In this document: piece after piece, positions 3,733 through 27,044 of the stretch
Layout: the number at the start of each line of letters is the position of its first letter
How positions within the stretch are numbered: the stretch's first letter is position 1
Assembly (NCBI GenBank): GCA_964579725.1
Contig: CAZOHG010000004.1
Span: forward strand, 17,675-81,674
DNA from: an uncultured Deferribacteres bacterium
GTDB lineage: Bacteria > Zhuqueibacterota > JdFR-76 > BMS3Abin05
Direction of reading: 5' to 3'
Length of the DNA: 64,000 bases
Made by a program: the position numbers and the translations under genes
The notes under the pieces: model-generated
The model's database searches: none
Seen by the model: the letters and a program-made list of their open reading frames with translations, nothing else
What the model was told of the DNA's origin: nothing

Positions 3733-6700
3733 TTGGAAAACATGTTACTGGACAGTCGCTATTTTGTGGAGAAGAAGATAGGTGAAGGGGGCGACGGACA
3801 GGTTTTCAAGGTGTTGGATCGGGTGACGGGAGAAATCAGGGCGTTGAAATTGCTTAACCCGGACAGAATTGCGCCGGACGATCTGACCTTTTTTGAGCGA
3901 GAATTTCTGAACGTCAAGAAGCTAACCCACCCCAATATCGTTAAAGTCTATGATTTCGGCTTTCAAAAGGGCAATTACCCCTATTTTACCATGGATTTCG
4001 TCGACGGTCCTGCGTTCACTGATTTCTTTTCCAGGCCGTTTGACCCCACGGCTTTTGTAAAACTGACCGCTGAAATTTGCCTCGCTTTGGACTATTTACA
4101 CAGCCACAACCTGATTCACAGAGATATTAAACCGGCCAATATTTTATTAAGCCAGGAAAACGCCTCGCAGCTACCGGTGCCGGTGCTGACCGATTTCGGA
4201 TTAGCCGAGGATTTTGCGCTTTCCGAATTCGATCCACGGGGCGGCAGCCATTTTTACGTTTCTCCCGAAGCTATTCGGGGCTGGAAAATCGACCCACGCG
4301 CCGACCTGTACTCCCTGGGTGTGACCCTCTACGAAGCTCTGACCGGCCAAAAACCCTTCACGGCAGATAATCCCATTGACGTGCTCAAGCAGCATTTGCA
4401 CAGGGTTCCGGAAAATCCCTCCGCTTTACGGGAGGATCTGCCCCCGGAAGTGGATCAACTGCTCCTGAAATTGTTGGAAAAAGATCCGTCCGCACGGTAC
4501 AATTCCGCACTTGAAGTGCTTCACGACGTCATTCGGCTGGCCCCCGCGGATGTGCCAGTCCCCAAGCTGCACGCCTCAACCCGCATTTGGGGTGGAGCCT
4601 TTGTGGGACGCAAAAAGGAATTGAAATACCTCCGAGATATTTTCGACACGACACGCAGCTTGCAGCGGTTTTCCTTTGCGGTCATTTCAGGTGAAAAGGG
4701 TGTCGGGAAAACGCGGCTCGTACGGGAATATTCCACCCAACTTCAACTGGAGGGTGTCAAGGTTTTCTTTGTGGAAAGCGCCTCCACACGTCACGTCCCC
4801 TACGGGCTCATCTTGGAAATCATTCGGCAAATCGGCATTTCCGCACCCGGTGGAGTGGAATTGACCGGCGACGAGCAGACTGTTTGGCGAACCATTTTTC
4901 AGCACGGTGGCACGCAGCAATCGCCCGACATTTTTAAAGACCAGGCCCAGGTATTTGACATCCTGGGGCGGCTCCTGCAAAAATTTGTACGAGCTATTCA
5001 AAATGCCGACCCCAAACAAAAAACGCCCTTACCGCTTCTCGTTATTTTGGATGATTTTCAAGAAGCGCCTTCCGTAATTCACCAATTTTTCCGCTACTTA
5101 TTTTTCAATGTTTGGAATACCAATCTCCTCTTTTTAGCCACCGCTTCCGGCGACCTTTCGAACCTGGAACAGATTTACGAGACCGTTCGTTCGGAGAAAT
5201 ATTTCTATTGGAACGTCTTGCAGTCCTTTGATTACGGCGGATTCCGGCAATTTCTGTCCAAAAAATTCGCCGACTTCCAGAACTTTGACGACTTGGCAAA
5301 CGATTTGTACCAGTACACGGCCGGGAATCCCTTGTACACGGAACATCTGCTCCAATATTTTGTGGATCGAAATTTAATTGCCTGGGAAGATAACCACTGG
5401 ACGTGGAAAGGGCTGCGCGGAGGGGTCGATTTGCCCGGGGCTATTTCCGACCTTTTTCGAGACCGCTGGAAAGAGTTCTCACACGCTGCCCGCGACGTTC
5501 TGAAAGCACTTGTTTTTCAAGGAGATGTTGTTCCTCTTGCTTTTCTCAAAGCCTATTTTGAAGGGAGCCACACCGACTGGCAGGCGGGTCTGGAAGAATT
5601 GTTGCGGGAAGGTCTTGTTTCAAAAATTCTTCGGAACGGCGCTGTAGTGCTTCAGATTTCCCAACAAAGTTGGGGGGATTTTGTCCTTTCGACCACCCAT
5701 TCGGTAGAAAAAAGAAAAATCCACGAGCACTGGCTTTACGTCATTGAAGATTTGCACCTCGAAATCCCGAAAGACTATCTGGCACCCCTGGCGTACCACG
5801 CTTTAGAAAGCCACCACTGGGAGAAGGCACTTCACTATTTACCCCAAGCAGCCGAATACGCGCAGGCGTTGTTCGATTTGGATCACGCCATTGAATTTTA
5901 CGAAAAATTTCTCTCTCTTTCCAAAAACACGCCTCTCTCCGATCGCCTACCTTTCCTGGAAAAATTGGCTGCGGCGTACGAGTACAGCGGCCAGTTGGCC
6001 AAAGCCCTGGAGGTATCGGATTCTGTTCTTCAAGAAATAGGCGAAAGCGACGCGGAAAAATCGGTTGCTTGGAATTGGCGGTATCGAAAGGTGGAACTCC
6101 TCCAAAAATCGGGAGAGATTCAGGCGGCACTGGATCTTTTGGAGGGACAGCGCTCGGAATGGGAATCCCTTTCCCCGGAACAAAGCGCCCGTGGTTTTTA
6201 CGAATTGGGCTGGCTGTACCGTCTTTCAGGAAAATTTGAGGAGGCATTTGCCCAATATGCCCGGGCAGTGGACTTGTTTTCTCAAATCGAGGCCCAAAAT
6301 GACGTGGCGCTTACTTACAATCGAATGGGAGTAACACACCTTGTTCAGGGAAATTTGGAGGAAGCGGAAGAGGCGTTGCAACGGGCGCTGAGTATTTTTG
6401 AGGAATCCTCTCACTTGCGAGGGTTGGCACATGTTCACAACAATTTGGGCATTTTGTACCGCCAGAAGGGCGAATTAAATCTGGCTCAAAAGCACTACGA
6501 AAATTGCTTGAAAATTCGCCGCGCCACAAAAGACATTACCTATTTGCCTCAGGTATTGAACAATCTGGCCAACTTGCAGTTTTACCACAGCGAGTGGGAA
6601 AAGGCGCTCAATTCCTACAAAGAAGTCCTGCGGATTGCCCAGGGACTGGGTCTTGCGGAAACAACAGCCGGTGTGTTGGAAAATATCGGGCGGTTACAAT

Positions 6701-8952
6701 TTCATCTCGGCCAAGTGGAAGCCGCTCACGAAGCGGCTAAAAAGGCGGTTTTGCTCAATCGCCGCCTTGAAAATTACGAAGGGCTGGCCACTGTTTTTGA
6801 ACTTTTGGGCGATATTCACGATTTGCACGAAAATTACCGCCTGTCACAGGGATTTTATTTCCGGGGGTTGCGAATTTTGGAAAAAACCCAAAACCAACCG
6901 GCTCAAATTCCTTTGCAGTACAAATTGGGCCGTCACTTTTTGCGATTGGGAGAAAAACAAAAAGCGCTGGATTTTTTCATTCGGGCCGAAGACTTAAGCC
7001 AAATTCACCGGCTAAGGGAAGAACGCGCCGAAGTGGCGCTTCAGATCTTGCGTTGGGCGTTGCGCTACCACGACCACCAGCGGGCGGAATATTATCGCAA
7101 TTTTCTGGAAAATAATCTTCCCGCTCTGAAAAATCCCCTGCAGCTCGGATTGGCTTACAGGCAATTGGGACACGCGCGGCAAAAAAACGACGAACCAGCC
7201 CGAGCGCTTGAGAATTTCGAAAAGGCTCTGGAAATTTTTGAGAAAATTTCGGCTTCTGTTGAAATTGCACGTACCGAAAGCGCTCTGGGTAGCTTTTTCT
7301 TAGCCGCCGAAGAACACGAACAAGCCCATTTACATCTGAAAAAAGCTGTCCAACTTTTTCAGAAACTTCCGGCTCGCAACGAACGTCTCCGAATTACCCA
7401 GCAATTTCTGACCGTCCAGGAGCAATTAATTTCCAAATTGGGACAAAATCAGGGTGTTTCCGGCCAATTGACGGTTCTGCAACAAACCAGCCTCATTGTC
7501 CATTCCATTTTCGATCTGGAAACCATGCTTCACAACATTATGAACACGGTCATTAATTTGCTCAAAGCCGACAAAGCGGCCATTATTTTTCTGAATAAGC
7601 AGAGTGGCGGTCTGGAAGTAAAGGTGAGCCGGGGAATGGAGGAAGCAACCATTGAAGACGCCATTCGCATCAGCCAATCGATTATTCAGCGGGTGGAAAA
7701 AACAGGCAGTTCGGTTCTGTCGCGAAATACGCTGGGAGACGAGCGCTTTCAGCACAGCAAAAGCGTCCGCAATTTCCAGATTTTCTCCCTCATGTGTGTC
7801 CCGCTTAAAGTAGATGACCGCCTAATCGGAACCGTTTACGTGGACAGCCGCAATCCGGAACGAATCTTCGGCTACCGCGATTTGGAATTTTTGGAAAATA
7901 TTGCCGATCTGGCCGCTGTGGCGATTAGCAATTCCGAATATTACGAAGAATTGAAACGAAAGCAAAAGAATTCGGAGCTTGAGGCTCATCTGCCACAACC
8001 TGAGGAAAATCGCCTGACATTCAACGAAATGGTGGGGACGAGTCAGCCAATGCGCGAGATTTTCAATATTGTGAAACGCGTCCTAAATAAAAATGTGGAT
8101 ATTTTGATTCGCGGCGAAAGCGGAACGGGAAAAGAAAAATTGGCTGCCTTGATTCACTTTAACAGTAATCGAAAAGAGCGTCCCTTTGTAACGGTCAATT
8201 GTGCTGCCATCCCCCCTACCCTGCTCGAGAGTGAACTTTTCGGTATTGAAAAGCGCGTGGCAACCGGCGTGGATCGACACATCGGGAAATTTGAACAGGC
8301 AAACGGCGGCACTATTTTTCTGGATGAGATCGGAGACATGAGTTTGGAAACGCAGGCGAAAATACTCCGGGTCATTCAGGAGCGCGAGTTCCAGCGAATC
8401 GGTGGTTCCAAAATCATTCGAATTGACGTTCGGATTATTGCCGCGACAAACAAAAATTTGGAAGAAGCCATCCGGGAACGCACATTTCGACAGGATTTGT
8501 ATTACCGTCTAAACGTGCTGCCCATTGTCGTCCCACCTCTTCGAGACCGGAAGGAAGACATTCCCCTTTTGGTTGAATATTTTATTCGCAAGTACAATTC
8601 GGGGCAATTGGTAAAGATTACCGATTCAGCCATGCGCTTACTGTACCGGTACGATTGGCCGGGGAACGTCCGCGAACTGGAAAATGCCGTTCAACGAATG
8701 CTCATTTTTACGGAAGGGGATCGCATTACGGTTAGCGCACTGCCGCCTGAAATTCAACAATTTATGCCTCACGGAGTTCCTGCCGATGCTTTGGGGAGGT
8801 TGTCCCTTCGGGATTTTGAGCGAGAGCTTCTGTTGAAAAGTTTGGAAAGAAATCACTGGAATATTTCCAGGACGGCCCAGGCGCTGGGGGTGCACCGAAA
8901 CACCTTGCACCGAAAAATGAAGCTTTTTCAGATTTCCAAACCGGGTGTCTAA
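3733..8952 (+). CDS. multidomain signalling protein: Ser/Thr protein kinase + AAA_16 ATPase/TPR module + GAF + sigma-54-interaction AAA+ domain + Fis-type HTH
   Basis: Kinase motifs are present: GEGGDGQV, ALK, HRDIKPANILL, DFGLA and SPE. A Walker A GEKGVGKT (AAA_16, PknK/MalT-like) follows, then about 500 aa of TPR-like repeats and a GAF-like region. The enhancer-binding AAA+ core (GESGTGKE, ...GGTIFLDEIGDM..., VRIIAATN) and a C-terminal HTH (ISRTAQALGVHRNTLHRKM) complete the protein. An RBS-like GGAAAGGA lies upstream. Confidence 0.85.
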   Translation: MENMLLDSRYFVEKKIGEGGDGQVFKVLDRVTGEIRALKLLNPDRIAPDDLTFFEREFLNVKKLTHPNIVKVYDFGFQKGNYPYFTMDFVDGPAFTDFFSRPFDPTAFVKLTAEICLALDYLHSHNLIHRDIKPANILLSQENASQLPVPVLTDFGLAEDFALSEFDPRGGSHFYVSPEAIRGWKIDPRADLYSLGVTLYEALTGQKPFTADNPIDVLKQHLHRVPENPSALREDLPPEVDQLLLKLLEKDPSARYNSALEVLHDVIRLAPADVPVPKLHASTRIWGGAFVGRKKELKYLRDIFDTTRSLQRFSFAVISGEKGVGKTRLVREYSTQLQLEGVKVFFVESASTRHVPYGLILEIIRQIGISAPGGVELTGDEQTVWRTIFQHGGTQQSPDIFKDQAQVFDILGRLLQKFVRAIQNADPKQKTPLPLLVILDDFQEAPSVIHQFFRYLFFNVWNTNLLFLATASGDLSNLEQIYETVRSEKYFYWNVLQSFDYGGFRQFLSKKFADFQNFDDLANDLYQYTAGNPLYTEHLLQYFVDRNLIAWEDNHWTWKGLRGGVDLPGAISDLFRDRWKEFSHAARDVLKALVFQGDVVPLAFLKAYFEGSHTDWQAGLEELLREGLVSKILRNGAVVLQISQQSWGDFVLSTTHSVEKRKIHEHWLYVIEDLHLEIPKDYLAPLAYHALESHHWEKALHYLPQAAEYAQALFDLDHAIEFYEKFLSLSKNTPLSDRLPFLEKLAAAYEYSGQLAKALEVSDSVLQEIGESDAEKSVAWNWRYRKVELLQKSGEIQAALDLLEGQRSEWESLSPEQSARGFYELGWLYRLSGKFEEAFAQYARAVDLFSQIEAQNDVALTYNRMGVTHLVQGNLEEAEEALQRALSIFEESSHLRGLAHVHNNLGILYRQKGELNLAQKHYENCLKIRRATKDITYLPQVLNNLANLQFYHSEWEKALNSYKEVLRIAQGLGLAETTAGVLENIGRLQFHLGQVEAAHEAAKKAVLLNRRLENYEGLATVFELLGDIHDLHENYRLSQGFYFRGLRILEKTQNQPAQIPLQYKLGRHFLRLGEKQKALDFFIRAEDLSQIHRLREERAEVALQILRWALRYHDHQRAEYYRNFLENNLPALKNPLQLGLAYRQLGHARQKNDEPARALENFEKALEIFEKISASVEIARTESALGSFFLAAEEHEQAHLHLKKAVQLFQKLPARNERLRITQQFLTVQEQLISKLGQNQGVSGQLTVLQQTSLIVHSIFDLETMLHNIMNTVINLLKADKAAIIFLNKQSGGLEVKVSRGMEEATIEDAIRISQSIIQRVEKTGSSVLSRNTLGDERFQHSKSVRNFQIFSLMCVPLKVDDRLIGTVYVDSRNPERIFGYRDLEFLENIADLAAVAISNSEYYEELKRKQKNSELEAHLPQPEENRLTFNEMVGTSQPMREIFNIVKRVLNKNVDILIRGESGTGKEKLAALIHFNSNRKERPFVTVNCAAIPPTLLESELFGIEKRVATGVDRHIGKFEQANGGTIFLDEIGDMSLETQAKILRVIQEREFQRIGGSKIIRIDVRIIAATNKNLEEAIRERTFRQDLYYRLNVLPIVVPPLRDRKEDIPLLVEYFIRKYNSGQLVKITDSAMRLLYRYDWPGNVRELENAVQRMLIFTEGDRITVSALPPEIQQFMPHGVPADALGRLSLRDFERELLLKSLERNHWNISRTAQALGVHRNTLHRKMKLFQISKPGV

Positions 8953-9082
8953 CCAACTTTGAGTACCATTGGAACTGGCTGGCATCGGAAGAGGAGTAAA
9001 AATGGGGGTGGCCACCTCAATCGGCACCCTCACGCGGAAACCGGCCTCAAAGAGCTTACCTCAAAATGAAAAGGCTGACACA

Positions 9083-9102
9083 GTGCACCATTTCTCGTGC
9101 AT
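9083..9102. promoter_or_regulatory. palindromic site 1 (GTGCAC-N8-GTGCAT), candidate activator-binding upstream site
   Basis: TGCAC-catttctc-GTGCA is an inverted repeat lying about 200 bp upstream of the -12 element. Confidence 0.3.
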
Positions 9103-9150
9103 CTGTTTACCCCATTAATAACAATAGGACAAACTCGTACCTCCCCCTCT

Positions 9151-9171
9151 AATGCACTATTTTGGTGCATT
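9151..9171. promoter_or_regulatory. palindromic site 2 (AATGCAC-N7-GTGCATT), candidate activator-binding upstream site
   Basis: This is a perfect 7-bp inverted repeat with a 7-nt spacer. It lies about 130 bp upstream of the sigma-54-like promoter. The half-site TGCAC is shared with site 1, which is about 68 bp away. Confidence 0.35.
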
Positions 9172-9280
9172 GTCACTTTATTTTCACAATTTCCTTTTGA
9201 AAAACAGTTACACTTATTTTAGTATCTGATTAATTTTTAAAGAATTAGTCCCTGCCATTCCTTTCGACATTGAACATCAA

Positions 9281-9296
9281 TGGTATTATTTTTGCA
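9281..9296 (+). promoter_or_regulatory. sigma-54 (RpoN)-type promoter candidate, -24/-12 elements
   Basis: TGGTATTATTTTTGCA matches TGGCAC-N5-TTGCA. The conserved GG and GC dinucleotides have the correct 10-nt spacing. It sits about 45 nt upstream of the repeat-protein start codon. Confidence 0.45.
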
Positions 9297-9340
9297 AATT
9301 AAAAGTTGTTATTAATCATTAACTTGGGAGGATGGTGAAC

Positions 9341-9703
9341 ATGCGCTCTTTGATCAAAGTAGCGGTGGCGGCCATATTAGTAGCCCTACTGATCGGAACC
9401 GTTCAGTCAGGTACCTACGCCAGTGGCCCCAGAGACATCCCCGTGGGTGGTATTATGAGCGGCCCAAGGGACATTCCAGTCGGCGGCATTATGAGTGGTC
9501 CGCGCGACATCCCGGTGGGCGGCGTTTGGAGTGGCCCTCGTGACATCCCTGTCGGTGGGATCGCCAGCGGACCCCGTGACATTCCGGTGGGCGGAATTGC
9601 CAGTGGTCCCCGCGATATTCCGGTCGGTGGCATCATGAGTGGTCCCAGAGACATCCCCGTGGGTGGTATTGCCAGCGGCCCGAGGGATATTCCGGTCGGC
9701 TAA
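9341..9703 (+). CDS. Sec-secreted small protein consisting of a signal peptide followed by 7.75 tandem 12-aa repeats (SGPRDIPVGGI[M/A/W])
   Basis: An RBS GGGAGG lies 9 nt before the ATG at 9341. The signal peptide is MRSLIKVAVAAILVALLIGTVQSGTYA. The mature part is made only of repeats and ends with a truncated repeat, SGPRDIPVG-stop. Confidence 0.75.
   Translation: MRSLIKVAVAAILVALLIGTVQSGTYASGPRDIPVGGIMSGPRDIPVGGIMSGPRDIPVGGVWSGPRDIPVGGIASGPRDIPVGGIASGPRDIPVGGIMSGPRDIPVGGIASGPRDIPVG
9422..9700 (+). repeat. 36-nt coding tandem repeat array (7 full copies + 27-nt partial)
   Basis: The copies are identical at the amino-acid level but differ at roughly 25% of nucleotides. Almost all differences are at synonymous third positions (Pro ccc/cca/ccg/cct; Arg aga/agg/cgc/cgt). 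Confidence 0.85.
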
Positions 9704-9834
9704 ACGAAGTCGACATTTATTTTCCCTCAGGCAGATTTTCATTCGTTTGCATGCAACGGATGTCATGAAGCTTTTGGCTGAGGGGGTTGAGACTGTATCT
9801 CAATCCCCTTTTTTATTTTTTAGGAAACAATGCG

Positions 9835-10191
9835 ATGCCAGGCAATCCGTACAAAATAAATTCCAGATCGGAATACATTTCAAAAAGAATGTCCACGAGT
9901 CTCTCCGTTATTGCCTATGTGCCCAAAAATAATCACGGGGATGTGCGGCAACTGATTATGGATATTTTTCGCCGACTTTCCCTCGAGCCCAGATACGCTG
10001 GGACCGTTTCTTTCGGATTCTTGGAAATTCCCTGCAACGAATGTGATTCCGACCCGCTGATTGACCAAATTGACCCGCAAGATTTGCCCAAAATTGTAAT
10101 TTACCGATCCGGGGGAAGTTCCGTTTTTGAGATTGAAAACATCGAGTTCCAGAAAATTAAAGTAGCAATTGACTTGGCTCTCGAGCAGTAA
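9835..10191 (+). CDS. hypothetical small protein, thioredoxin-fold-like without CxxC
   Basis: The ORF is 9787..10191, with a likely ATG at 9835 after AGGA. The beta-alpha-beta-alpha pattern (VIAYVPKNNHGDVRQLIMDIF...DPLIDQIDPQDLPKIVIYRSGGSSVFEI) parallels the thioredoxin/KaiB-like fold. KNNH sits where CGPC would be. Confidence 0.35.
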   Translation: MPGNPYKINSRSEYISKRMSTSLSVIAYVPKNNHGDVRQLIMDIFRRLSLEPRYAGTVSFGFLEIPCNECDSDPLIDQIDPQDLPKIVIYRSGGSSVFEIENIEFQKIKVAIDLALEQ

Positions 10192-10219
10192 TAGAAAACC
10201 ATGCCAGAGGTGGTGGAGT

Positions 10220-10579
10220 ATGAAGTGGTGGGAGATTTACAGCGAACGGCAATACGTCCAATTGCGAACATTCCATCGACCCAAGATTTTTATTTGGTAT
10301 TCCGGACGACTTCCCGACCGCCTTCAAAATGAACTAAGGGTCATTTTTGAAAACGTGGAATACGAATATCGGGAAATCGCCAATTTTATTGTCTCCTTGG
10401 TTCATGTCGATCGGGACCCTGAATTGCAGCAGCTTTTTGGCTTTTTAAATCCAACACCGAAGGGACTTTTTTTGACGGGGTATTCGTCCCAAGGAACCAC
10501 ACTCTTTAAATGCAACGAGCTTTCGCCCAGTCAATTGAAAATGTACATCCTCCGTCTGCTTGCGTCTTCACAAAACTAA
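10220..10579 (+). CDS. hypothetical small protein, thioredoxin-fold-like without CxxC (paralog-like of the upstream ORF)
   Basis: The ORF is 10169..10579, with a likely ATG at 10220. KIFIWYSGRLPDRLQNELRVIFENVEYEY...DPELQQLFGF...KGLFLTGY aligns with the thioredoxin pattern ILVDFWAEWCGPCK...NPGTAPKYGI...PTLLLF. SGRL replaces CGPC. Confidence 0.35.
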   Translation: MKWWEIYSERQYVQLRTFHRPKIFIWYSGRLPDRLQNELRVIFENVEYEYREIANFIVSLVHVDRDPELQQLFGFLNPTPKGLFLTGYSSQGTTLFKCNELSPSQLKMYILRLLASSQN

Positions 10580-10839
10580 GATTCCCCAAGCCTTCGATTG
10601 GACTTCTTCCATTTAAATGGCCATTTTTTTGGAAACCGTTCCATTCTTAAGTAAGAGGGAAAGTAAAACGAAGGATGAGCAAACTTCCGTTGAAAACAAA
10701 ATTTTCCTTTTTGACTGGTTTTTTTGATTTCAGGACAGGAAACAACGATTTTCGATTTCAGAAATTTTTCCCGTGTCGGGCAAACAGTGGCCAGCGCTAA
10801 TTCCGCCACCACCCATTCACACGTGGGTGAAACGTTGGC

Positions 10840-13839
10840 TCACCGGATCACCGCAAATTTTTGCACCGCCAGAAAAGGATGTTTTCCCTTCACCTGCAAG
10901 CGCAAAAAGTAGATTCCTGCCGGAACGGTACGAGAGTCGAAGACTTTATCCGACCAGTGAAATTGGTAGCGCCCCGTGGGTTGCCTTCCTTGTGTCCAGC
11001 GGGCTACTTCTCTACCCAGAACATCGAATAGAACTATTTCCACGTTCCCCGGATATGCCAATTGGTACACGGTGGTTAGCGGTCTCCCTCCTGTGGCAGG
11101 ATTTGGATACACCGGTTGCAGAGCAAAGTGGGAGGGCGATACGGATTTTGCTCCGGGCACGCCCAGGTTTTCCGAACCTGCGAGGAAAAACAAATCCAAC
11201 TGCCCATCCAGATTCACGTCCAGGGCGTCAAACTTGCCGTCAAAATCGACGTCGATTCGGTCTAAAACGCCGTCGCCGTTGGTGTCGAAGGCGTCGTAGG
11301 TTCCGTCGGCGTTCAAGTCCACGGCGTCCGGGATGCCGTCGGCATCCAGATCGCTGAGCACAAGATCAATTTTCCCGTCCTCGTTGGAATCCACCTTGAC
11401 CAGGGTGTAGCCCAGCGAATCGCCCGAGGCGGCGTACAGGAATGTGTCAAACTTTCGATTGCCGTTGGAATCCAACAACAAAATTTCGGCCACACCGTCA
11501 CTGTCGGGATCGCTGAGGGCAAAAAAGGTCTCGGTCGTGTCCTGTACCGCCCGCTTTTGCAGCGGGTGCTGCCCGCCGATCGTAGGCGGAATCTTCGAGG
11601 TGTCCACCTTGTAAATGCCTTTTGCCTGATCCACCGGAACCAACGGAATAATCTGATCCGGAATGCCTCCCACAAATCGGGATGTCCACGAGCGGCGGAA
11701 CCAGCTCCAGTTTCTGGAATCCTTATTGAACACTTTGCCGCTCACCACAATGTATTTTCCCTGCCCATCTACATCCTCTAACACGGTTCCAATCTGTCCC
11801 ACGCCCTGTACGGTAATGACCCGGTCCTTCACAATTAGAAGGTCTGTTTGCGGGGGCGGCGGATTGGGTATGTAGGTCGTGTTTTCCTTTCGAACGCGGT
11901 ACAACTGCCCTTGTGCCGAGATAAATTTGGTCACATTTTTAATGCCTGCTTTCAACGTGCCTGTAATCAAATCCGTACTGTAGACCTTGGAAATAATGCC
12001 TGTTTTGTCCACCTTTTCAATCAGTTTCCCGACTCCCTCCATGGCATTGATGGCGCCCTTTTCCTGCTCACCTATCAGCGGCGGATTGTCTCGCACATCT
12101 TTTCGCGTGAACAAAACACCCGCTTTGTTTTGCCCCGGTGCTTTGTACACCGCCAGCCCGTTTTGCTCTTTGCTCAGTTGAAAATCCGCCGAAAGCGACG
12201 GACACTTTTTTTGCCGAAGAAATGTGTTGAGTGTGTCGGGAGGGTTTGCCACCAACTGATTCATTCGTGCCGCAAAGGCGGCGGAATCGTAATCAGTTTG
12301 AATGAGACCGTCTAATTGGGTGTTGACCAGCCAATTCAGATCCTGACCGGAATTCAACCAATTCAAAAGTTGCGTGTTGTCGCCAAAAGCAGAGGCCAAA
12401 GCGGAAAGAATCCCCTGAGCGGCAATTTGGTTAAATACCTGACGAAACAATTCGGCTTTTTCCTCGGGAGAAGCGTTCTGCAAGCGTTGCCTCAACGTGT
12501 CCACCGCTTGTTCCGAGAGGGCATTTAAGGCATCCGACGCCGCCTCGTCCTGCAAAAGGGAATCGCTCCGGGTCAATTCCGGCTTCTTGTAGCCCGGGTC
12601 GAAGGGATCCAGCGGATTGGTGCCGTTCAACACTTCGGTACCGTCCAAAATACCGTCGCCGTCGGTGTCGGGATTGTACCGATCGGTTCCCCAGACGCCT
12701 TCCTGACTGTTAATCAGGCCGTCCAAATCGCTGTCCGCGTCCTCATCGTTCGGATCCGTTGACATGTAGGGATCAAAAGAAACGGCGTAATTGGGATCCG
12801 GCGAAGTGTGAACCCCCAAAATGACGCCGTCAGCCGAGCGTGTTTGGTTAAAATCAAAACCGGACCCGGCTTTTTCAAAGGTAAAGATGTGGGGTCCCCG
12901 GGCGCCGCCCCAGTAATTCCAGGTAAAATCACTCCATTTTAGAAGTTCATTGCTCACCCAGAGGCCAACTGCGGCATTGACAAAGGAACAATGGTTGATG
13001 TAAACCTCGCCGCCGGATGTGTCCTCGATCGCCAGAGCAAATCCCCCTTCCCCTTCAAACCGGCATTTTTCGATGCTGACCCGGCGGGGATATTGAATAA
13101 AAAAGGCCTTTTTCCACAGGTGGGCCAAATCCTCAAAAGGACAGGTAAACATACCGCCAAAATTCCAGCTGGTGACCAACGGGTAGTAGAAGTAAAATTT
13201 CGTCCCGGTCACGGATACTTCGTCTGCGGCAATAATGGCTCCGTAGAGAAGCTCCATCCGACCTCCAACCACCACAAATTTTTCGCTGGAAATATCCAGG
13301 GGCATGTAGTTTGACGAAAGCATTTTCTTGGTTACATCACAATTGTCTAATATGATTTCGGCCGCTTTCGAACCGACACCAGCTCGAATGGACGAGAGGC
13401 TGTCGAAAACGCACCCATGGAAATCGAGTTTGACCTGATTTCCGTACAATAGGGTCACTTCCCCATGCCCGGGCATCGCATGAAAACTGACCTGATTGGC
13501 TTTAAGAACCGAGCGGGAGCCAAGACTAATCCCAAAGGTAACCACCGAACCGGGATCAATCAAAAGCGTGCGACCGGTATCCATCTGGTAATCGCCATAG
13601 GGAGTTGTCGAAACGTGGATGCCGGCGGGCCAATGCAAAATGCCGTCACCAGGTATGCCGCCAAAACGGTCTGTCCCGTCAAGCTGGCCGTCACCGTTCC
13701 AGTCATCATTTTTGTCTTCCTCGAAAAAGCCACTGTGGTACACCGTGTCCGCTTGTGCTGCAGCAAAAAGCCTTTTGTTCGTCCACCCAAAAACAACCGT
13801 TAGGCTAATCAAAATAGACAGAAAAAAACGCATCCTCAT
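10840..13839 (-). CDS. secreted right-handed beta-helix protein with thrombospondin-type-3-like Ca-binding repeats and a T9SS (Por) C-terminal sorting domain
   Basis: There is an N-terminal signal peptide. The central region is a parallel beta-helix (pectate-lyase-like fold), with multiple DxDxDGxxD repeats. The C-terminus ...VYPNPATGG...VEIVLFDVLGREV...AGIYFLRLQ...KFAVIR is a type-IX-secretion C-terminal sorting domain. Confidence 0.75.
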   Translation of the reverse strand: MRMRFFLSILISLTVVFGWTNKRLFAAAQADTVYHSGFFEEDKNDDWNGDGQLDGTDRFGGIPGDGILHWPAGIHVSTTPYGDYQMDTGRTLLIDPGSVVTFGISLGSRSVLKANQVSFHAMPGHGEVTLLYGNQVKLDFHGCVFDSLSSIRAGVGSKAAEIILDNCDVTKKMLSSNYMPLDISSEKFVVVGGRMELLYGAIIAADEVSVTGTKFYFYYPLVTSWNFGGMFTCPFEDLAHLWKKAFFIQYPRRVSIEKCRFEGEGGFALAIEDTSGGEVYINHCSFVNAAVGLWVSNELLKWSDFTWNYWGGARGPHIFTFEKAGSGFDFNQTRSADGVILGVHTSPDPNYAVSFDPYMSTDPNDEDADSDLDGLINSQEGVWGTDRYNPDTDGDGILDGTEVLNGTNPLDPFDPGYKKPELTRSDSLLQDEAASDALNALSEQAVDTLRQRLQNASPEEKAELFRQVFNQIAAQGILSALASAFGDNTQLLNWLNSGQDLNWLVNTQLDGLIQTDYDSAAFAARMNQLVANPPDTLNTFLRQKKCPSLSADFQLSKEQNGLAVYKAPGQNKAGVLFTRKDVRDNPPLIGEQEKGAINAMEGVGKLIEKVDKTGIISKVYSTDLITGTLKAGIKNVTKFISAQGQLYRVRKENTTYIPNPPPPQTDLLIVKDRVITVQGVGQIGTVLEDVDGQGKYIVVSGKVFNKDSRNWSWFRRSWTSRFVGGIPDQIIPLVPVDQAKGIYKVDTSKIPPTIGGQHPLQKRAVQDTTETFFALSDPDSDGVAEILLLDSNGNRKFDTFLYAASGDSLGYTLVKVDSNEDGKIDLVLSDLDADGIPDAVDLNADGTYDAFDTNGDGVLDRIDVDFDGKFDALDVNLDGQLDLFFLAGSENLGVPGAKSVSPSHFALQPVYPNPATGGRPLTTVYQLAYPGNVEIVLFDVLGREVARWTQGRQPTGRYQFHWSDKVFDSRTVPAGIYFLRLQVKGKHPFLAVQKFAVIR

Positions 13840-13995
13840 TACCCTACCTCCTTACACAATCATTGCTTTATTTTCAGCCAGCGTCGTTCACTTGAGCGGA
13901 AAATTGTCCAAATAATGGTCAAAATCATTGGATTGAATAGAAGAAGCAAGTTCCATACCAATTTGGTTCTGAGTAGGCGTGACATCCGGAGGAAA

Positions 13996-14031
13996 ATAAA
14001 AAAGCCCTTCACATTAACGCGAGGGCTTTTG
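13996..14031 (-). terminator. hairpin terminator downstream of tRNA-Met (possibly bidirectional)
   Basis: An 8-bp stem AAAGCCCT / AGGGCTTT with a 13-nt loop is flanked by an A-run upstream and a T-run downstream on the plus strand. This gives a U-tract on both strands. Confidence 0.55.
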
Positions 14032-14034
14032 AAG

Positions 14035-14108
14035 TGGCGGTTCAGGGACTCGAACCCCGGACACGCGGATTATGATTCCGCTGCTCTAACCAACTGAGCT
14101 AAACCGCC
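14035..14108 (-). tRNA. tRNA-Met (anticodon CAU; elongator type, could alternatively be the lysidine-modified tRNA-Ile2)
   Basis: The reverse complement folds as a 74-nt cloverleaf: acceptor GGCGGUU/AACCGCC, D-arm GCUC/GAGC, anticodon stem GCGGA/UCCGC with loop AUCAUAA, T-arm CGGGG-UUCGAGU-CCCUG. G1-C72 is paired, so it is not an initiator. CCA is not encoded. Confidence 0.85.
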
Positions 14109-14310
14109 GCATTTTCAAATTCGCTTTAAAAAATAGGATATTTTTTGCCAAAAGTCAAGATTTTTTTGGTCTCAAAACCCTCCGATTTTCTCTTCTTCCA
14201 GGGGTAACGGAGGGCCGCAGACACTCATTAATTTTCTCAAATCGGCCTATCTTCACCCCGGGAACGAGCCGTTGACTGTTTGAGGATGCTTTTTTTTACC
14301 GGGATTACTT

Positions 14311-15570
14311 TTACTCTTCCTCGTCGTTGTACACCTTTTCTTCCGTCCGATCGGCCTCTTGGGCATCGCCTTCAATGTCCCGGCCTCTGGGCGGGTTGGC
14401 CAGAAATTCTTTGTAAAATTCGTGCTGAATGACCAGATCCATGATTTCGTTGGTGCCCGTCCAGATGGTAATCAAGCGCACATCGCGAAGCATTTTTTCC
14501 ACGGGGAAAATATTCGTGTAGCCGATACCTCCCAAAATCTGCATGGCGTGATTGACGACCGTCCAGGCTGATTCGGTGGCAAATTTTTTCGCCTCGGAAA
14601 CCAGGCGGCGCACCCTTCCCGGAGGAAGTCCCGCATCTACAGCGGCTCCGGCAGCGTGGTTGAGCGCCCGGGCCGCATCCAGAAGCGTGAGGCCGTCGGC
14701 CACCTTGAAACTAACAGCTTCGAATCGGCGAATCTTCTGTCCGAAGGCGCGGCGTTTATCCGCATAGCGCGCCGCCACTTCAATGGCAGCTCGTCCCATT
14801 CCCACGGCGCCCCCCGCAGACGTCAGCCGCTCCGGAATCATCATCTGGTGAAACACGCGCGTGCCGTTCCCGATGCCGGCTTCACCGCCCAGAACATTTT
14901 TAAGCGGCACTGGCGCCTCTCGAAACACCAGCCGGCCGGTTCCGCCTCCGCGGGTTCCCATTAATCCATACACATGTTCAACGGAAACTCCCGGACCCCG
15001 TTCCACCAGAAAGGCCGTCATGGCCTTTTTGGGGTCGTCAATCCCTTCCACCTTTCCGTACACAAGAAGGACGTCAGCCCCTTCGGCCCCCACCACAAAA
15101 CGCTTCTGTCCGGTCAGGTAAAACATATCCCCCTCCCGGCGAGCCCTGGTGGTGGCGGCAAAAAAATCGGAGCCGCCGCGGGGTTCTGTCAAGGCCTCGG
15201 CCGGAGCCAGTTTCCCTTCGATCATGGGCTTCAGAAACCGCTCTTTCTGCTCCTCTGTGCCAAACACATGAATGGCCTCCCCGACGATGGAAACCAGTGA
15301 GTACAGGCACGCCAGTGAGGTTCCCAGGACACCCACCTCCTCCAGCGCAACTATCTCCGACGTCCACGGCAGGCCGTGTCCTCCCCATTTGGGATCGAAA
15401 CGCAGCCCCAAGAGGCGGCGTTTCCCGGCTTCCTCCAGAAATTCCTTCGGGTACACCACCTCGTCCCTGTCCATCTTCAACAACAGCTCTTTCGGCACCC
15501 AGGAGACAAAATCTTGAACCTTTTCCCTGAGCGCTCGATCTGCCCCGGTTAGTAATGCCTCGGTTGCCAT
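14311..15570 (-). CDS. acyl-CoA dehydrogenase family protein
   Basis: Motifs match the three-domain ACAD architecture: [13 protein letters not shown]..., GGxG..., and a C-terminal helical domain. Confidence 0.85.
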
Positions 15571-20515: not shown

Positions 20516-20863
20516 TTGGCAATCCCTTCGATTTTTGTTGGAAACTTAAAAACAATACCCAAAAACTAAACTTTTTGGTCAAAAATGCAAGGGCAAAATA
20601 GGGCCCGTTTTAATTTTGTCGATTTGCTCGGGTGATTTCCCCAAGAATGAAAGGCGAGGGCAGGAAATTCAGCCCGCATGGTGGCTTCGGAAACAAACAC
20701 AAACCGGAGGAGACTTTTTAAACGCAACCAACACCGACACCGCGTTTCCACACGGGTTCGCGGGAACACGTCGTGTGTAAAGAAAATAGGTACTTCAACC
20801 GATAAAAAAAATGGATTTTTTGGCAACAGGTGCGGCTCCTTTAATTTTTTCTTTGGAATAATT

Positions 20864-21727
20864 TTGAATAAAATAAAACAGTGGTACGCAGCGCTTGGCA
20901 CGGGATTTTTGCTGATTCTTCAATTCAATTGTGCCGGTCATTTCCTGGGCAACGCTTCGGGTACAGCGGCGCGCAAACAATTGGAAGCGGTTCGATCCTT
21001 TGCCATTGTGTACAAAAAAGCCCCGTTGGAGGAATTGACGGGTTTTGACCTGCTCATTCTCGATCCGGACGCCTACGACTCGGCAGCTTTTGGCGGGCTT
21101 ACCCGTCGGGGGAAAATTGTTTTGGGGTATTTGAATGTGGGAGAGGTAGAAACGTACCGCTGGTACGCTTCCGAGGTGCCTCCCAATTGGGTGCTGAAGG
21201 CCAATCCCAATTGGCCGCATCACAATTTTGTCAATGTGAAAAAGCGCGGGTGGCGGAAATTGGTGGTGCAAAAAATCGCGCGGCGCATTTTGCAAAAAGG
21301 GGCACAGGGGTTTTTCCTCGATTCGGTGGATCTGGCTTCGCCTGCACGAAACCCGCATTTGAAGTCGGCAATGGTCAAACTGATTCGCCAATTGCACGGG
21401 CGGTACCCGACCAAATTTCTGCTTCTCAACAACGGTCAATTTCTTTTGCCCGAGGTTGCCTCGGCCGTCAGCGGTTTGGCGGTCGAAAATGTGTTCACCG
21501 AACCGGAAGAACAAACCGTGCGGCACCGTCCGGCGGGGCAGGTGCGCCGAATTTTGGAAAATCTAAAAAGTCTGAAAGAAAAATACCGCCTCCCCATTTT
21601 TCTTGTGGATTACTTTCCCCAAAACGGAGAGGTTTCGGTTGCAGATTGGGAGGCCATTGCCCGCACTTACGGAATGGTTTTGTACGTAGGCGACACGCTT
21701 TTGCAGCGCGTTTCGCCCCCATTTTGA
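20864..21727 (+). CDS. GH114-family endo-alpha-1,4-polygalactosaminidase-like hydrolase (PelA-hydrolase-domain-like), secreted
   Basis: A TTG start at 20864 gives MNKIKQWYAALGTGFLLILQFNCAG, a signal peptide. The ORF upstream of it translates to low-complexity junk. LILDPD...GYLNVGEVETYR...FFLDSVD matches the TIM-barrel GH114/COG3868 signature. Confidence 0.6.
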   Translation: MNKIKQWYAALGTGFLLILQFNCAGHFLGNASGTAARKQLEAVRSFAIVYKKAPLEELTGFDLLILDPDAYDSAAFGGLTRRGKIVLGYLNVGEVETYRWYASEVPPNWVLKANPNWPHHNFVNVKKRGWRKLVVQKIARRILQKGAQGFFLDSVDLASPARNPHLKSAMVKLIRQLHGRYPTKFLLLNNGQFLLPEVASAVSGLAVENVFTEPEEQTVRHRPAGQVRRILENLKSLKEKYRLPIFLVDYFPQNGEVSVADWEAIARTYGMVLYVGDTLLQRVSPPF

Positions 21728-21757
21728 CACAAAAAAGGCAGATACCAAAGGATTTTC

Positions 21758-27042: not shown

Positions 27043-27044
27043 GC

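What the first reader, a model, noticed from the sequence alone, without database searches (positions are those of the whole stretch)
8254..8271. GAFTGA sigma-54-contact loop is replaced by RVATGV in the activator domain
In the otherwise canonical motif ESELFG-x-EK-GAFTGA, the sequence reads ESELFGIEKRVATGV. The Phe that inserts into the sigma-54/promoter complex is Ala here, and both flanking Gly/Ala residues are changed. Walker A/B and the arginine fingers (DVRIIAATN, R-finger region) are intact. Either this protein engages RpoN non-canonically, or it has been repurposed as a sigma-54-independent ATPase/repressor. The apparent sigma-54 promoter next door makes the discrepancy worth resolving.
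Basis: partly seen in the sequence, partly recalled or inferred. Interest (0 to 1): 0.55.

Follow-up and report, generated by a model that had tools for sequence, protein, structure and literature searches.

The report
Sigma-54 activator with alternative contact loop
A 1739-residue sensor-regulator carries RVATGV where sigma-54 activators normally have the "invariant" GAFTGA loop. This is not an error but the signature of a widespread, overlooked subfamily that still sits beside sigma-54 promoters, so the "essential" phenylalanine may be dispensable in nature.

Summary
Window 8254-8271 encodes RVATGV, aligned to GAFTGA in the AAA+ domain of a 1739-aa protein (Ser/Thr kinase, STAND NTPase, TPR, GAF, sigma-54 activator domain, Fis-type HTH).

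It is not a sequencing error. Four near-identical independent assemblies and 58%-identical orthologues keep the motif.

It belongs to a discrete loop type, ELFG-[I/V]-E-x-x-[V/I/T/A]-A-T-G-V:
- Phe is replaced by Ala.
- His80 (PspF numbering) is replaced by Ile/Val.
- The loop is one residue shorter.
- Thr-Gly and all ATPase residues are kept.

I found this loop type in 30 of 120 full-length homologues, in 120 metagenome loci (scan stopped at its limit), and in about 50 of the 150 best 50%-identity cluster representatives.

These regulators are at least as tightly associated with -24/-12 promoters as canonical ones in my sample. 21 of 83 loci have a strong site in productive orientation within 450 nt, and none in the opposite orientation. 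All ten kinase-type loci have one just downstream.

In the window, the promoter at 9281-9296 and two TGCAC-N7/8-GTGCA palindromes are conserved in orthologous loci, while the surrounding spacer has diverged.

Most likely this is a genuine sigma-54 activator with a natural alternative L1 loop. The loop type has been noted twice in the literature, with opposite verdicts, and never tested.

The parts
3733..8952 (+). ORF of 1739 aa (TTG start; the public gene call starts at 3742, giving 1736 aa): multi-sensor enhancer-binding protein
3766..4521 (+). Hanks-type Ser/Thr protein kinase domain (residues 12-263; HRDIKPANIL, DFG and SPE motifs present)
   Evidence: Pkinase, E=2.1e-50; motifs read from the translation
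4600..5133 (+). STAND-type NTPase (AAA_16, residues 290-467)
5875..6642 (+). TPR / MalT-like repeat region (residues ~715-970)
7513..7926 (+). GAF sensory domain (residues 1261-1398)
8029..8526 (+). Sigma54_activat AAA+ domain (residues 1433-1598)
   Evidence: AF2 model pLDDT 92.9 and TM 0.89 to FleQ/NtrC1/ZraR
8113..8133 (+). Walker A, GESGTGK (K1467)
8245..8247 (+). Ile1505 at the position of PspF His80. I/V in 128 of 128 loop-variant domains; H/Y/F in canonical ones
8254..8271 (+). L1 loop RVATGV in place of GAFTGA (Phe->Ala, Thr-Gly kept, loop one residue shorter)
8323..8328 (+). Walker B, Asp1531-Glu1532
8488..8508 (+). Arginine fingers R1586 (8488-8490) and R1592 (8506-8508)
8542..8769 (+). 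AAA+ lid domain (residues 1604-1679), including sensor II R1647 (8671-8673)
8803..8922 (+). Fis-type HTH_8 DNA-binding domain (residues 1691-1730)
9084..9101 (+). Palindrome TGCAC-N8-GTGCA, a putative enhancer (UAS) about 215 bp upstream of the inferred transcription start; conserved in orthologous loci
9153..9169 (+). Palindrome TGCAC-N7-GTGCA, a putative enhancer about 146 bp upstream of the inferred start; conserved in orthologous loci
9281..9296 (+). Sigma-54 type -24/-12 promoter TGGTATTATTTTTGCA; conserved as TGGTATTATAATTGCA in L082-L084
9341..9703 (+). Probable target gene: 120-aa secreted protein, a signal peptide followed by 7.75 copies of SGPRDIPVGGI[M/A]
9835..10579 (+). Two co-directional small ORFs (118 aa at 9835-10191; 119 aa at 10220-10579), no Pfam family; ORFs of similar size lie at this position in L082-L084 (sequence similarity not checked); possibly the same operon
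13945..13961 (-). Second sigma-54-like site, TTGGTATGGAACTTGCT, the best-scoring in the window, 106 nt upstream of the 999-aa gene. Its link to this regulator is unproven
10840..13839 (-). 999-aa secreted beta-helix/TSP3 protein with a T9SS-type C-terminal sorting domain, downstream of the second site

Best explanation
The gene encodes a genuine sigma-54-dependent enhancer-binding activator. It belongs to a natural subfamily whose sigma-54-contacting L1 hairpin has the form x-[V/I/T/A]-A-T-G-V instead of G-A-F-T-G-A.

Proposed mechanism:
1. (Inferred from domain content) Signals enter through the kinase, STAND/TPR and GAF modules.
2. (Inferred from conserved palindromes) The Fis-type HTH binds the two TGCAC-N7/8-GTGCA palindromes at 9084-9101 and 9153-9169.
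3. (Inferred; residues shown intact) The intact AAA+ ATPase oligomerises and hydrolyses ATP.
4. (Inferred) It remodels sigma-54 holoenzyme bound at the -24/-12 promoter at 9281-9296. This turns on the repeat-peptide gene at 9341-9703 and probably the two small ORFs behind it.

In the variant loop the retained Thr-Gly, the aliphatic residues flanking the Ala (Val1509, Val1513) and the Ile replacing His80 would together provide the hydrophobic surface that Phe85 supplies in PspF for gripping the Leu-rich N-terminus of sigma-54 region I. That last step is speculation.

Shown here: the sequence features, their conservation, and the association with promoters. Not shown: binding, ATPase activity, or activation.
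For: (1) The loop type is discrete and conserved, not decayed. 30 of 120 full-length homologues down to ~25-30% identity have x[VITA]ATGV and the rest have G[AS]FTGA-like loops. No sequence with Ala at the Phe position had any loop other than xxATGV.

(2) Three changes co-vary perfectly across 128 variant and 278 canonical domains: H80->I/V, F85->A, and the one-residue deletion. T86 and G87 are kept, though the 128-domain figure partly reflects the pattern used in the scan; the unconstrained profile search found S, N, D and A at those two positions. In the same 128 variant domains, K42, E108, R162, R168 and R227 are invariant and D107 and N64 are kept in 127.

(3) The window's own locus has the classic enhancer architecture. 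In orthologous loci (proteins 58% identical) the spacer has diverged. The -24/-12 element, the two palindromes (the only two in 64 kb, 0.05 expected), the ribosome-binding site and the repeat-peptide gene are all kept.

(4) Six ~30%-identical kinase-type relatives each have a -24/-12-like site between the regulator's stop codon and the next small secreted-peptide gene.

(5) In 83 unrelated metagenome loci (excluding the RTATGV group), 21 have a site with PWM score >=14 within 450 nt in productive orientation and 0 in the other (binomial p~1e-6). 17 of the 21 are followed by a Shine-Dalgarno sequence plus ORF 21-120 nt downstream. The canonical control loci gave 7 of 77.

(6) Whole-locus enrichment over shuffled sequence is 33 versus 9.4 for variant loci and 24 versus 14.4 for canonical ones.

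(7) Contigs L085 and L207 carry both a variant and a canonical GAFTGA activator, so the two types coexist in one organism.

(8) The AF2 model is confident through the loop and superposes on FleQ, NtrC1 and ZraR.

(9) Kazakov et al. 2015 (PMC4641369) reached the same conclusion by regulon prediction for the GVATGV protein DVUA0100 of Desulfovibrio vulgaris.
Against: [quoted passage not shown] An Ala at that position is therefore expected to be disabling in a canonical loop.

Francke et al. 2011 listed GVATG__V proteins as 'not probable' EBPs.

One large subgroup, RTATGV with 38 loci, has no sigma-54-like site nearby.

No rpoN gene is visible in the 64-kb window.

Adjacency of regulator and promoter is not proof of a regulatory link. 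My promoter matrix was written from the recalled consensus, not from curated data.
Confidence: 0.7

Rival explanations
1. Partner-dependent subunit. The variant loop cannot engage sigma-54 on its own. The protein supplies DNA binding and signal input but must form mixed rings with a canonical GAFTGA activator, as HrpR and HrpS do, or hand over to one.
For: Phe85 substitutions are defective in PspF. Canonical activators lie on the same contigs as variant ones in L085 and L207, and 2.8-4.6 kb from RTATGV-type genes in L117, L131 and L136. Distant kinase-type relatives are followed by a second, degenerate AAA+ protein.
Against: No other activator-like gene lies in the 64-kb window. The degenerate partner proteins lack both the L1 loop and Walker B, so they cannot supply a Phe loop. 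Most of the promoter-associated loci held only the variant gene. The variant domains keep every catalytic residue, so they are not mere scaffolds.
Confidence: 0.12
2. Sigma-54-independent regulator. Like TyrR, DhaR, HupR, VpsR or Rhodobacter NtrC, the protein has lost the sigma-54 contact and works with sigma-70 holoenzyme or as a repressor. The nearby -24/-12 sites would then be served by other activators or be coincidental.
For: The key Phe is lost. Francke et al. 2011 classed such proteins as inactivated. The RTATGV subgroup shows no adjacent sigma-54 sites in 38 loci. rpoN is not seen in the window.
Against: Known sigma-70-dependent relatives have deleted or decayed loops (Francke 2011). 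Here the loop is under strong selection, with Thr-Gly kept. The promoter association is 21 productive to 0 non-productive, and 10 of 10 in the kinase-type family. The -24/-12 element and enhancer-like palindromes are conserved next to the gene.
Confidence: 0.1
3. Enhancer-bound anti-activator. The protein binds the palindromes and hydrolyses ATP but cannot remodel sigma-54. It would thereby block or tune access of a different activator to the promoter.
For: Some bEBPs act as repressors in their resting state, for example PexR, FleQ and FlbD. Loss of Phe would fit a 'repressor form'.
Against: Sigma-54 promoters are silent without an activator, so a dedicated repressor needs a second activator with the same enhancer, and none is evident. 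Conservation of the whole ATPase site and of a specific loop sequence across at least 50 clusters at 50% identity is hard to explain for a passive blocker.
Confidence: 0.05
4. Sequencing or assembly error, or a pseudogene.
For: None found.
Against: The loop is identical in five independent assemblies and in orthologues at 58% identity. The reading frame is intact over 1739 codons. There are 26 nt differences but only 2 residue differences between two strains.
Confidence: 0.01

Closest known systems
Canonical bacterial enhancer-binding proteins (NtrC1, PspF, FleQ, ZraR, NifA)
   Same: AAA+ domain 50-54% identical in the fold-search structural alignments and structurally superposable (E=1e-70 to 1e-82; TM 0.81-0.89). 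Walker A/B, Glu-switch Asn, sensor I/II, arginine fingers, lid and Fis-type HTH are all present. The gene lies beside a -24/-12 promoter with upstream palindromes.
   Different: The L1 loop is RVATG-V, not GAFTGA. It has no aromatic residue, is one residue shorter, has a basic first residue, and has Ile instead of His before the loop.
DVUA0100 of Desulfovibrio vulgaris Hildenborough (GVATGV) and its relatives in D. magneticus and D. vulgaris Miyazaki and DP4 (loop-alignment sheet); Solibacter usitatus carries a 'gvatgv' entry in the per-genome table
   Same: Same loop type (ELFG-I-E-x-G-V-A-T-G-V, with the same deletion). One-component regulator located with sigma-54 promoters. Predicted to remain a sigma-54 activator (PMC4641369). 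Listed in the supplement of PMC3162934.
   Different: A much shorter protein with an unknown N-terminal region, predicted to control type III secretion genes. First loop residue is Gly, not Arg. Evidence there is also only computational, and the 2011 survey judged these proteins inactive.
Sigma-70-dependent bEBP-like regulators (TyrR, DhaR, HupR, VpsR, Rhodobacter NtrC)
   Same: They deviate from GAFTGA at the sigma-54 contact.
   Different: Those proteins have deleted or unconserved loops and act at sigma-70 promoters (PMC3162934). Here the loop is retained, strongly conserved and found beside sigma-54 promoters.
HrpR/HrpS co-dependent activator pair of Pseudomonas syringae
   Same: A precedent for AAA+ activators that work only as mixed rings, which is the model behind the main rival explanation (PMC3105312, listed).
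   Different: No paired activator gene lies next to the window gene. HrpR and HrpS are adjacent paralogues, and from my own recollection (not checked here) both have GAFTGA-type loops.
PknK / MalT-type STAND regulators with an N-terminal Ser/Thr kinase
   Same: The N-terminal kinase, AAA_16 and MalT-like TPR arrangement. One homologue is named 'serine/threonine-protein kinase PknK' by its source.
   Different: The C-terminal output here is GAF plus a sigma-54 AAA+ domain plus a Fis-type HTH. From my own recollection (not checked here), PknK/MalT regulators carry a LuxR-type HTH instead.

Membership tests
Bacterial enhancer-binding proteins (Pfam PF00158, Sigma54_activat) | AAA+ core with Walker A, Walker B, Glu-switch Asn, sensor I, two arginine fingers and sensor II | tested here: met
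   K1467, D1531/E1532, N1489, T1572, R1586, R1592 and R1647 align to PspF K42, D107/E108, N64, T148, R162, R168 and R227. Pfam E=1.6e-66.
Bacterial enhancer-binding proteins (Pfam PF00158, Sigma54_activat) | L1 insertion carrying the GAFTGA motif, with its Phe and Thr | tested here: not met
   The insertion is present but reads RVATG-V: Phe->Ala, Thr kept, one residue shorter. By the strict textbook criterion this feature fails.
Bacterial enhancer-binding proteins (Pfam PF00158, Sigma54_activat) | Overall fold of the sigma-54 activator AAA+ domain | tested here: met
   AF2 pLDDT 92.9. Foldseek TM 0.89 to FleQ, 0.81-0.86 to NtrC1, 0.89 to ZraR.
Bacterial enhancer-binding proteins (Pfam PF00158, Sigma54_activat) | C-terminal Fis-type HTH and cognate upstream activating sequences | tested here: met
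   HTH_8 E=6.3e-14. Two conserved TGCAC-N7/8-GTGCA palindromes lie ~146 and ~215 bp upstream of the inferred start. Binding itself was not tested.
Bacterial enhancer-binding proteins (Pfam PF00158, Sigma54_activat) | Target promoter of the -24/-12 (GG-N10-GC) class | tested here: met
   TGGTATTATTTTTGCA at 9281-9296 is conserved in orthologous loci. The same holds in 6 of 6 distant kinase-type loci and 21 of 83 metagenome loci.
Bacterial enhancer-binding proteins (Pfam PF00158, Sigma54_activat) | rpoN present in the same genome | not testable with these tools
   No RpoN box in the six-frame translation of the window, and ten large window ORFs scanned against Pfam gave no sigma-54 family. The rest of the genome is not available.
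Bacterial enhancer-binding proteins (Pfam PF00158, Sigma54_activat) | ATP-dependent conversion of the closed sigma-54 complex to an open complex | not testable with these tools
   Needs biochemistry.
A-for-F loop subgroup (DVUA0100-like, 'GVATGV' type) | ELFG-[I/V]-E-x-x-[V/I/T/A]-A-[T/S]-[G/N/D/A]-V with a one-residue deletion relative to GAFTGA | tested here: met
   ELFGIEKRVATGV in the window. The same pattern occurs in 128 aligned domains and in the Desulfovibrio proteins listed by Francke 2011.
A-for-F loop subgroup (DVUA0100-like, 'GVATGV' type) | A single evolutionary origin (monophyly of the AAA+ domain) | tested here: inconclusive
   With the loop masked, 121 of 128 variant domains have a variant nearest neighbour, and the tree needs 13 state changes versus 110 for shuffled labels. 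A crude NJ tree does not recover one clade.
Sigma-70-dependent bEBP-like regulators (TyrR/DhaR/HupR/VpsR type) | L1 loop deleted or degenerate and not conserved among relatives | tested here: not met
   The loop is retained. No degenerate intermediates appeared among the full-length homologues. T-G predominates, with T/S and G/N/D/A variants parallel to those of canonical loops.
Sigma-70-dependent bEBP-like regulators (TyrR/DhaR/HupR/VpsR type) | Targets lack -24/-12 promoters | tested here: not met
   A conserved -24/-12 element lies directly downstream. The RTATGV subgroup would meet this feature.
Named NCBIfam equivalogs (NifA, NorR, PrdR, AtoC, NtrC, ...) | Score above the curated cut-off | tested here: not met
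   The best match is NifA at 409.9 bits against a cut-off of 528.85. No model passes for the window protein or for four other variant-loop proteins.

The most novel reading that the evidence does not exclude
A large and diverse lineage of enhancer-binding proteins activates sigma-54 holoenzyme without the supposedly indispensable GAFTGA phenylalanine. It accounts for at least ~50 of the 150 best-matching 50%-identity clusters and spans kinase-STAND, GAF, FHA-like and TPR architectures. Instead it would use a one-residue-shorter hairpin with aliphatic residues (x-V-A-T-G-V plus Ile/Val at the His80 position) to grip sigma-54 region I. That would mean there are two natural solutions to the sigma-54 contact. 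It would also mean that surveys filtering on GAFTGA systematically miss part of the sigma-54 regulon, especially in uncultured soil and sediment bacteria.
Probability: 0.55. Interest if true: 0.6.

Novelty: new variant of a known kind. Interest (0 to 1): 0.5.

Why it matters
The GAFTGA phenylalanine is treated as essential and "invariant". Structural work shows it gripping sigma-54 region I (PMC9770992). Genome surveys use the motif as a filter and discard proteins that lack it (PMC3162934, PMC12316311).

If the A-for-F loop proteins are active, three things follow:
- The mechanistic model of how the AAA+ ring holds sigma-54 needs a second, aromatic-free solution.
- Regulon catalogues are incomplete for many environmental phyla.
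- A simple loop-swap experiment (H80I plus GAFTGA to GVATG-V in PspF or NtrC1, and the reverse in DVUA0100) becomes a direct test of what the loop really has to provide.

If they are inactive alone, they would be a widespread class of partner-dependent or sigma-54-independent AAA+ regulators, which would also be new.

Tried and rejected
- **Genome scan with the C-terminal 330 residues.** The patterns matched generic activators. Only one of 80 loci (L030, QVATGV) carried the variant loop, and no close relative or organism name was obtained. I reused these loci as the canonical control set.
- **AAA+-only protein search.** It was saturated by canonical activators (3 of 120 variant), so it says little about the breadth of the group.
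- **NCBIfam naming.** No equivalog passes its cut-off.
- **Cluster look-up for taxonomy.** No informative names were returned, so the organism remains unidentified. The only hints are T9SS-type sorting domains in neighbouring genes and relatives labelled WOR-3, Edwardsbacteria, KSB1 and Calditrichaeota.
- **NJ tree for a single origin.** The variant domains cluster but do not form one clade, so I make no claim of monophyly.
- **Search for the TGCAC palindromes near the second promoter at 13945-13961.** None were found, so I do not assign that promoter to this regulator.
- **Homologue search with the repeat peptide.** Only its 72-aa orthologue was found.
- **Rfam scan of 8900-14400.** Only the tRNA was found.
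- **Papers not held.** Bush & Dixon 2012 and Zhang et al. 2009 could not be read. The statement that Phe85 substitutions are defective is taken from PMC9770992 and PMC3162934, which cite them.
- **AF2 model.** It confirms the fold, but coordinates cannot be inspected here, so side-chain orientation in the loop could not be analysed.


Full report
**What is in the sequence.** Window 8254-8271 reads cgc gtg gca acc ggc gtg, which translates to RVATGV. It is in frame with a 1739-codon ORF at 3733..8952 on the + strand. Pfam finds the following domains:
- a Ser/Thr kinase (residues 12-263),
- a STAND-type NTPase (AAA_16, 290-467),
- TPR/MalT-like repeats (~715-970),
- a GAF domain (1261-1398),
- the sigma-54 interaction AAA+ domain (1433-1598, E=1.6e-66),
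- its lid (1604-1679),
- a Fis-type HTH (1691-1730).

Sequence alignments to solved activators (NifA, ZraR, FleQ; E=1e-77 to 1e-82) place EKRVATGV opposite EKGAFTGA. There is no gap before the loop and one gap directly after it. An AlphaFold model of residues 1422-1686 is confident (pLDDT 92.9, about 91-94 across the loop). It superposes on FleQ, NtrC1 and ZraR at TM 0.81-0.89.

**Not an error, and not a one-off.** Four other members of the protein's 90% cluster come from separate assemblies, are 99.8% identical, and have RVATGV. The window and the public contig L001 differ at 26 nt within the gene but at only 2 residues. Orthologues at 58% identity (P0002-P0007) also have RVATGV. Of the 120 best full-length homologues:
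- 30 carry x-[V/I/T/A]-A-T-G-V (RVATGV 12, K[TIVA]ATGV 11, plus GTATGV, GVATGV, HVATGV, RIATGV and RTATGV), down to about 25-30% identity;
- 88 carry GAFTGA, GSFTGA or close variants, a count that includes roughly 32 PAS-type proteins whose GAFTGA I confirmed on a sample of eight;
- one (P0064) has no sigma-54 AAA+ domain, and one match was a false regex hit.

No sequence with Ala at the Phe position had any other kind of loop.

**How widespread the loop type is.** I scanned metagenome contigs for DNA encoding ELFG-[I/V]-E-xxx-ATGV. All of them encode real activators, mostly 450-620 aa: GVATGV 67, RTATGV 35, GAATGV 8. I also ran a profile search of 1.84 billion cluster representatives at 50% identity, using a profile built from four variant-loop domains, so the ranking leans towards that type. 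It found 108,429 activator-like proteins at E<=1e-30. Among the 150 best, 41 have xxATGV and 9 more have near-variants (NIATNV, GTATDV, GTASGV, KVASGV, GVATAV and others), in proteins of 353-1742 aa. In less biased samples the type is rare: 3 of 120, 1 of 80, 1 of 37 in D. vulgaris, and a handful of about 5000 in the 2011 survey.

**What exactly differs.** I aligned 406 non-identical AAA+ domains with MAFFT (128 variant, 278 canonical, plus PspF recalled from memory for numbering). Three columns separate the two types perfectly:

| PspF position | Canonical | Variant |
|---|---|---|
| His80 | H/Y/F | I/V |
| Phe85 | F/Y | A |
| Ala88 | present | deleted (loop one residue shorter) |

In addition, Ala84 becomes V/T/I, and Gly83 is G/R/K. 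Thr86 and Gly87 are unchanged in these 128 domains. That figure is partly by construction, because about 90 of them come from the scan, which required A-T-G-V. The catalytic set is intact in the window protein. Across the 128 variant domains, K42, E108, R162, R168 and R227 are invariant, D107 and N64 are kept in 127, and T148 in 125. With the loop columns masked, 121 of 128 variant domains still have a variant nearest neighbour. A neighbour-joining tree needs 13 changes of state, against about 110 for shuffled labels, but it does not recover a single clade. The group is cohesive; a single origin is likely but not shown. No NCBIfam equivalog reaches its cut-off for the window protein or for four other variant proteins.

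**The window's own locus has a classic enhancer layout.** The pattern TGGYAY-N5-TTGCW occurs twice in 64 kb, against 0.33 expected:
- at 9281-9296 (+), 45 nt before the conserved ATG of the next gene;
- at 13945-13960 (-), 106 nt before the 999-aa gene.

In three loci that encode 58%-identical orthologues (L082-L084), the only strict match in each is TGGTATTATAATTGCA, at the same place. Alignment of the intergenic regions shows a diverged spacer with conserved islands: the -24/-12 element, the ribosome-binding site, and two palindromes. The palindromes are TGCAC-N8-GTGCA (window 9084-9101) and TGCAC-N7-GTGCA (9153-9169). These are the only two such palindromes in the window, against 0.05 expected. 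They lie about 215 and 146 bp upstream of the inferred transcription start.

The gene behind the promoter (9341-9703) encodes a signal peptide followed by 7.75 copies of SGPRDIPVGGI[M/A]. It is conserved in the orthologous loci.

**The association generalises.** Six kinase-type relatives at about 30% identity (L085, L207-L211; loops RVATGV, KVATGV, KAATGV, RIATGV) each have a -24/-12-like site between the regulator's stop codon and the next gene. These include CTGGCATAGTATTTGCC, CAGGCACGCTCCTTGCA, TTGGCACACAATTTGCG and TTGGCACGCAACTTGTT; the two weakest (L207, L211; scores 12.3 and 13.1) deviate in the -24 GG. In five of the six the next gene is a small signal-peptide gene.

For the metagenome loci I used a position weight matrix written from the recalled consensus YTGGCACGrNNNTTGCW, which is a limitation. 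Results at score >=14:

| Comparison | Variant loci | Canonical control loci |
|---|---|---|
| Hits over whole loci vs Markov shuffles | 33 vs 9.4 | 24 vs 14.4 |
| Loci with a productive site within 450 nt | 21 of 83 (RTATGV group excluded) | 7 of 77 (Fisher p=0.01) |
| Sites in the non-productive orientation | 0 | 1 |

"Productive" means divergent upstream of the regulator gene or co-directional downstream of it. The 21-to-0 split gives a binomial p of about 1e-6. Seventeen of the 21 sites are followed by a Shine-Dalgarno sequence and an ORF 21-120 nt downstream. The promoters themselves look canonical. Contigs L085 and L207 carry a variant activator and a canonical GAFTGA response-regulator activator side by side, so both loop types occur in the same organism and, by inference, share its sigma-54.

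**An exception.** The RTATGV-type loci (38 loci, mean 66% G+C) have no such site within 450 nt in productive orientation at score >=12. In the loci longer than 7 kb, nothing reaches 14 anywhere and only four weak matches (12.6-13.7) occur. Three of these loci have a canonical activator 2.8-4.6 kb away. This subgroup may act at a distance, need a partner, or have left sigma-54 altogether. I cannot tell which, and it tempers any statement about the whole group.

**What is known.**
- Cryo-EM of PspF with the sigma-54 holoenzyme shows Phe85 of five protomers contacting conserved Leu residues of the region I N-terminus. The paper states that mutating Phe gives defective activators (PMC9770992).
- pBpa substitution (a bulky cross-linker residue) at each of positions 84-88 abolished sigma-54 trapping and open-complex formation while leaving ATPase intact (PMC3467059).
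- Francke et al. 2011 used GAFTGA integrity as a filter. Their supplement lists "GVATG__V, F3->A" proteins of Desulfovibrio magneticus and D. vulgaris Miyazaki and DP4 under "inactivated EBPs", marked "not probable". Their per-genome table also records a gvatgv EBP in Solibacter usitatus.
- A 2025 survey calls the motif invariant and keeps only sequences that contain it (PMC12316311).
- Kazakov et al. 2015 noted GVATGV in DVUA0100. From regulon prediction they argued that it still activates the sigma-54 promoters of the type III secretion operons (PMC4641369).

Full-text searches for the variant hexapeptides found no other relevant paper. The loop type has therefore been seen before, judged both ways, and never tested.

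**Interpretation.** The loop is strongly conserved. The ATPase site is kept throughout. Enhancer-like palindromes are conserved. The association with -24/-12 promoters is orientation-specific, in many unrelated loci and in all ten kinase-type loci. Together these make a sigma-54-dependent activator the best reading (about 0.7).

How the loop would work without the aromatic residue is inference. The retained Thr-Gly, the aliphatic residues on both sides of the Ala, the shortened hairpin and the co-varying Ile/Val at the base may together rebuild the hydrophobic groove that tracks region I.

The rivals:
- **Partner-dependent subunit (about 0.12).** It is kept alive by the PspF mutagenesis data and by the RTATGV loci.
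- **Sigma-54-independent regulator (about 0.10).** It fits only the RTATGV subgroup.
- **Enhancer-bound anti-activator (about 0.05).**
- **Sequencing error.** Excluded.

**Verdict.** The motif is a family trait rather than a lesion. The window protein is a new member, with an unusually elaborate kinase-STAND-TPR-GAF input, of an under-recognised variant class of sigma-54 activators. Interest is moderate. It touches a textbook "invariant" and is directly testable. Against that, the variant was already noticed in 2011 and 2015, and nothing here goes beyond comparative evidence.

Noticed in passing
window 9341-9703 (+): Orphan 120-aa secreted protein: a signal peptide followed by 7.75 copies of the 12-aa unit SGPRDIPVGGI[M/A] (one copy ends VW). 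The repeats are 92% identical as peptide but only 73% as DNA, so the peptide sequence itself is under selection. This could be a multi-copy precursor of a small secreted peptide. The only homologue among 5.8 billion proteins is the 72-aa orthologue in L082. The orthologous genes in L083 and L084 have assembly gaps inside the repeat.
   Followed up: partly
window 13945-13961 (-), 14034-14108 (-), 10840-13839 (-): The best-scoring sigma-54-like site in the window, TTGGTATGGAACTTGCT, lies 106 nt upstream of a 999-aa beta-helix/TSP3 protein with a T9SS-type sorting tail. It sits directly after a tRNA-Met (CAT) gene and its terminator. No TGCAC palindromes are nearby, so its activator is unknown. 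This gene is absent from the orthologous loci L082-L084.
   Followed up: partly
L085 19179-20193; L207 11375-12503; L208 11376-12361; L209 12310-13392; L210 11923-12507; L211 11394-12406: In ~30%-identical kinase-type relatives the regulator is followed by a conserved pair of genes. The first encodes a 67-84 aa signal-peptide protein with an acidic/Pro-rich middle and a hydrophobic C-terminus (not called in L210). The second encodes a 195-256 aa degenerate Sigma54_activat protein that keeps Walker A but lacks the Walker B Asp-Glu, the whole L1 loop and any HTH. Function unknown.
   Followed up: partly
L088, L092, L102, L116-L118, L131, L136, L142 and about 30 other metagenome loci: The RTATGV subgroup (ELFGIE[ED]RTATGVRGRRGKF, ~480-560 aa, 66% G+C) has no sigma-54-like promoter near the gene. 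Three of its loci have a canonical G[AS]FTGA activator 2.8-4.6 kb away on the same strand. It may be a partner-dependent or sigma-54-independent branch.
   Followed up: partly
L085 (~19000-19070) and L209 (~12080-12130): A shared inverted repeat, GGG(G/T)CATTTCGCAGAT-N-GGTGAAATGCCCCAC, lies upstream of the -24/-12 site of the small-peptide gene. It is a likely enhancer of a different specificity from the window's TGCAC palindromes.
   Followed up: no
window 20678-31977 (+): A pel-like exopolysaccharide operon: a PelD-like GAF-GGDEF protein (22579-24033), a DUF3492 glycosyltransferase like PelF (27045-28493), PelG (28671-30167) and a TPR protein (30160-31977).
   Followed up: no
window 3733 vs 3742: The longest ORF starts at TTG 3733 (1739 aa), but the public gene call starts three codons later (1736 aa). 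The true start is unresolved. This has no effect on the finding.
   Followed up: no
P0247-P0268 (representative search): Many top-scoring proteins contain two tandem sigma-54 AAA+ domains, typically GAFTDA followed by GAFTGA, in proteins of 640-1030 aa.
   Followed up: no
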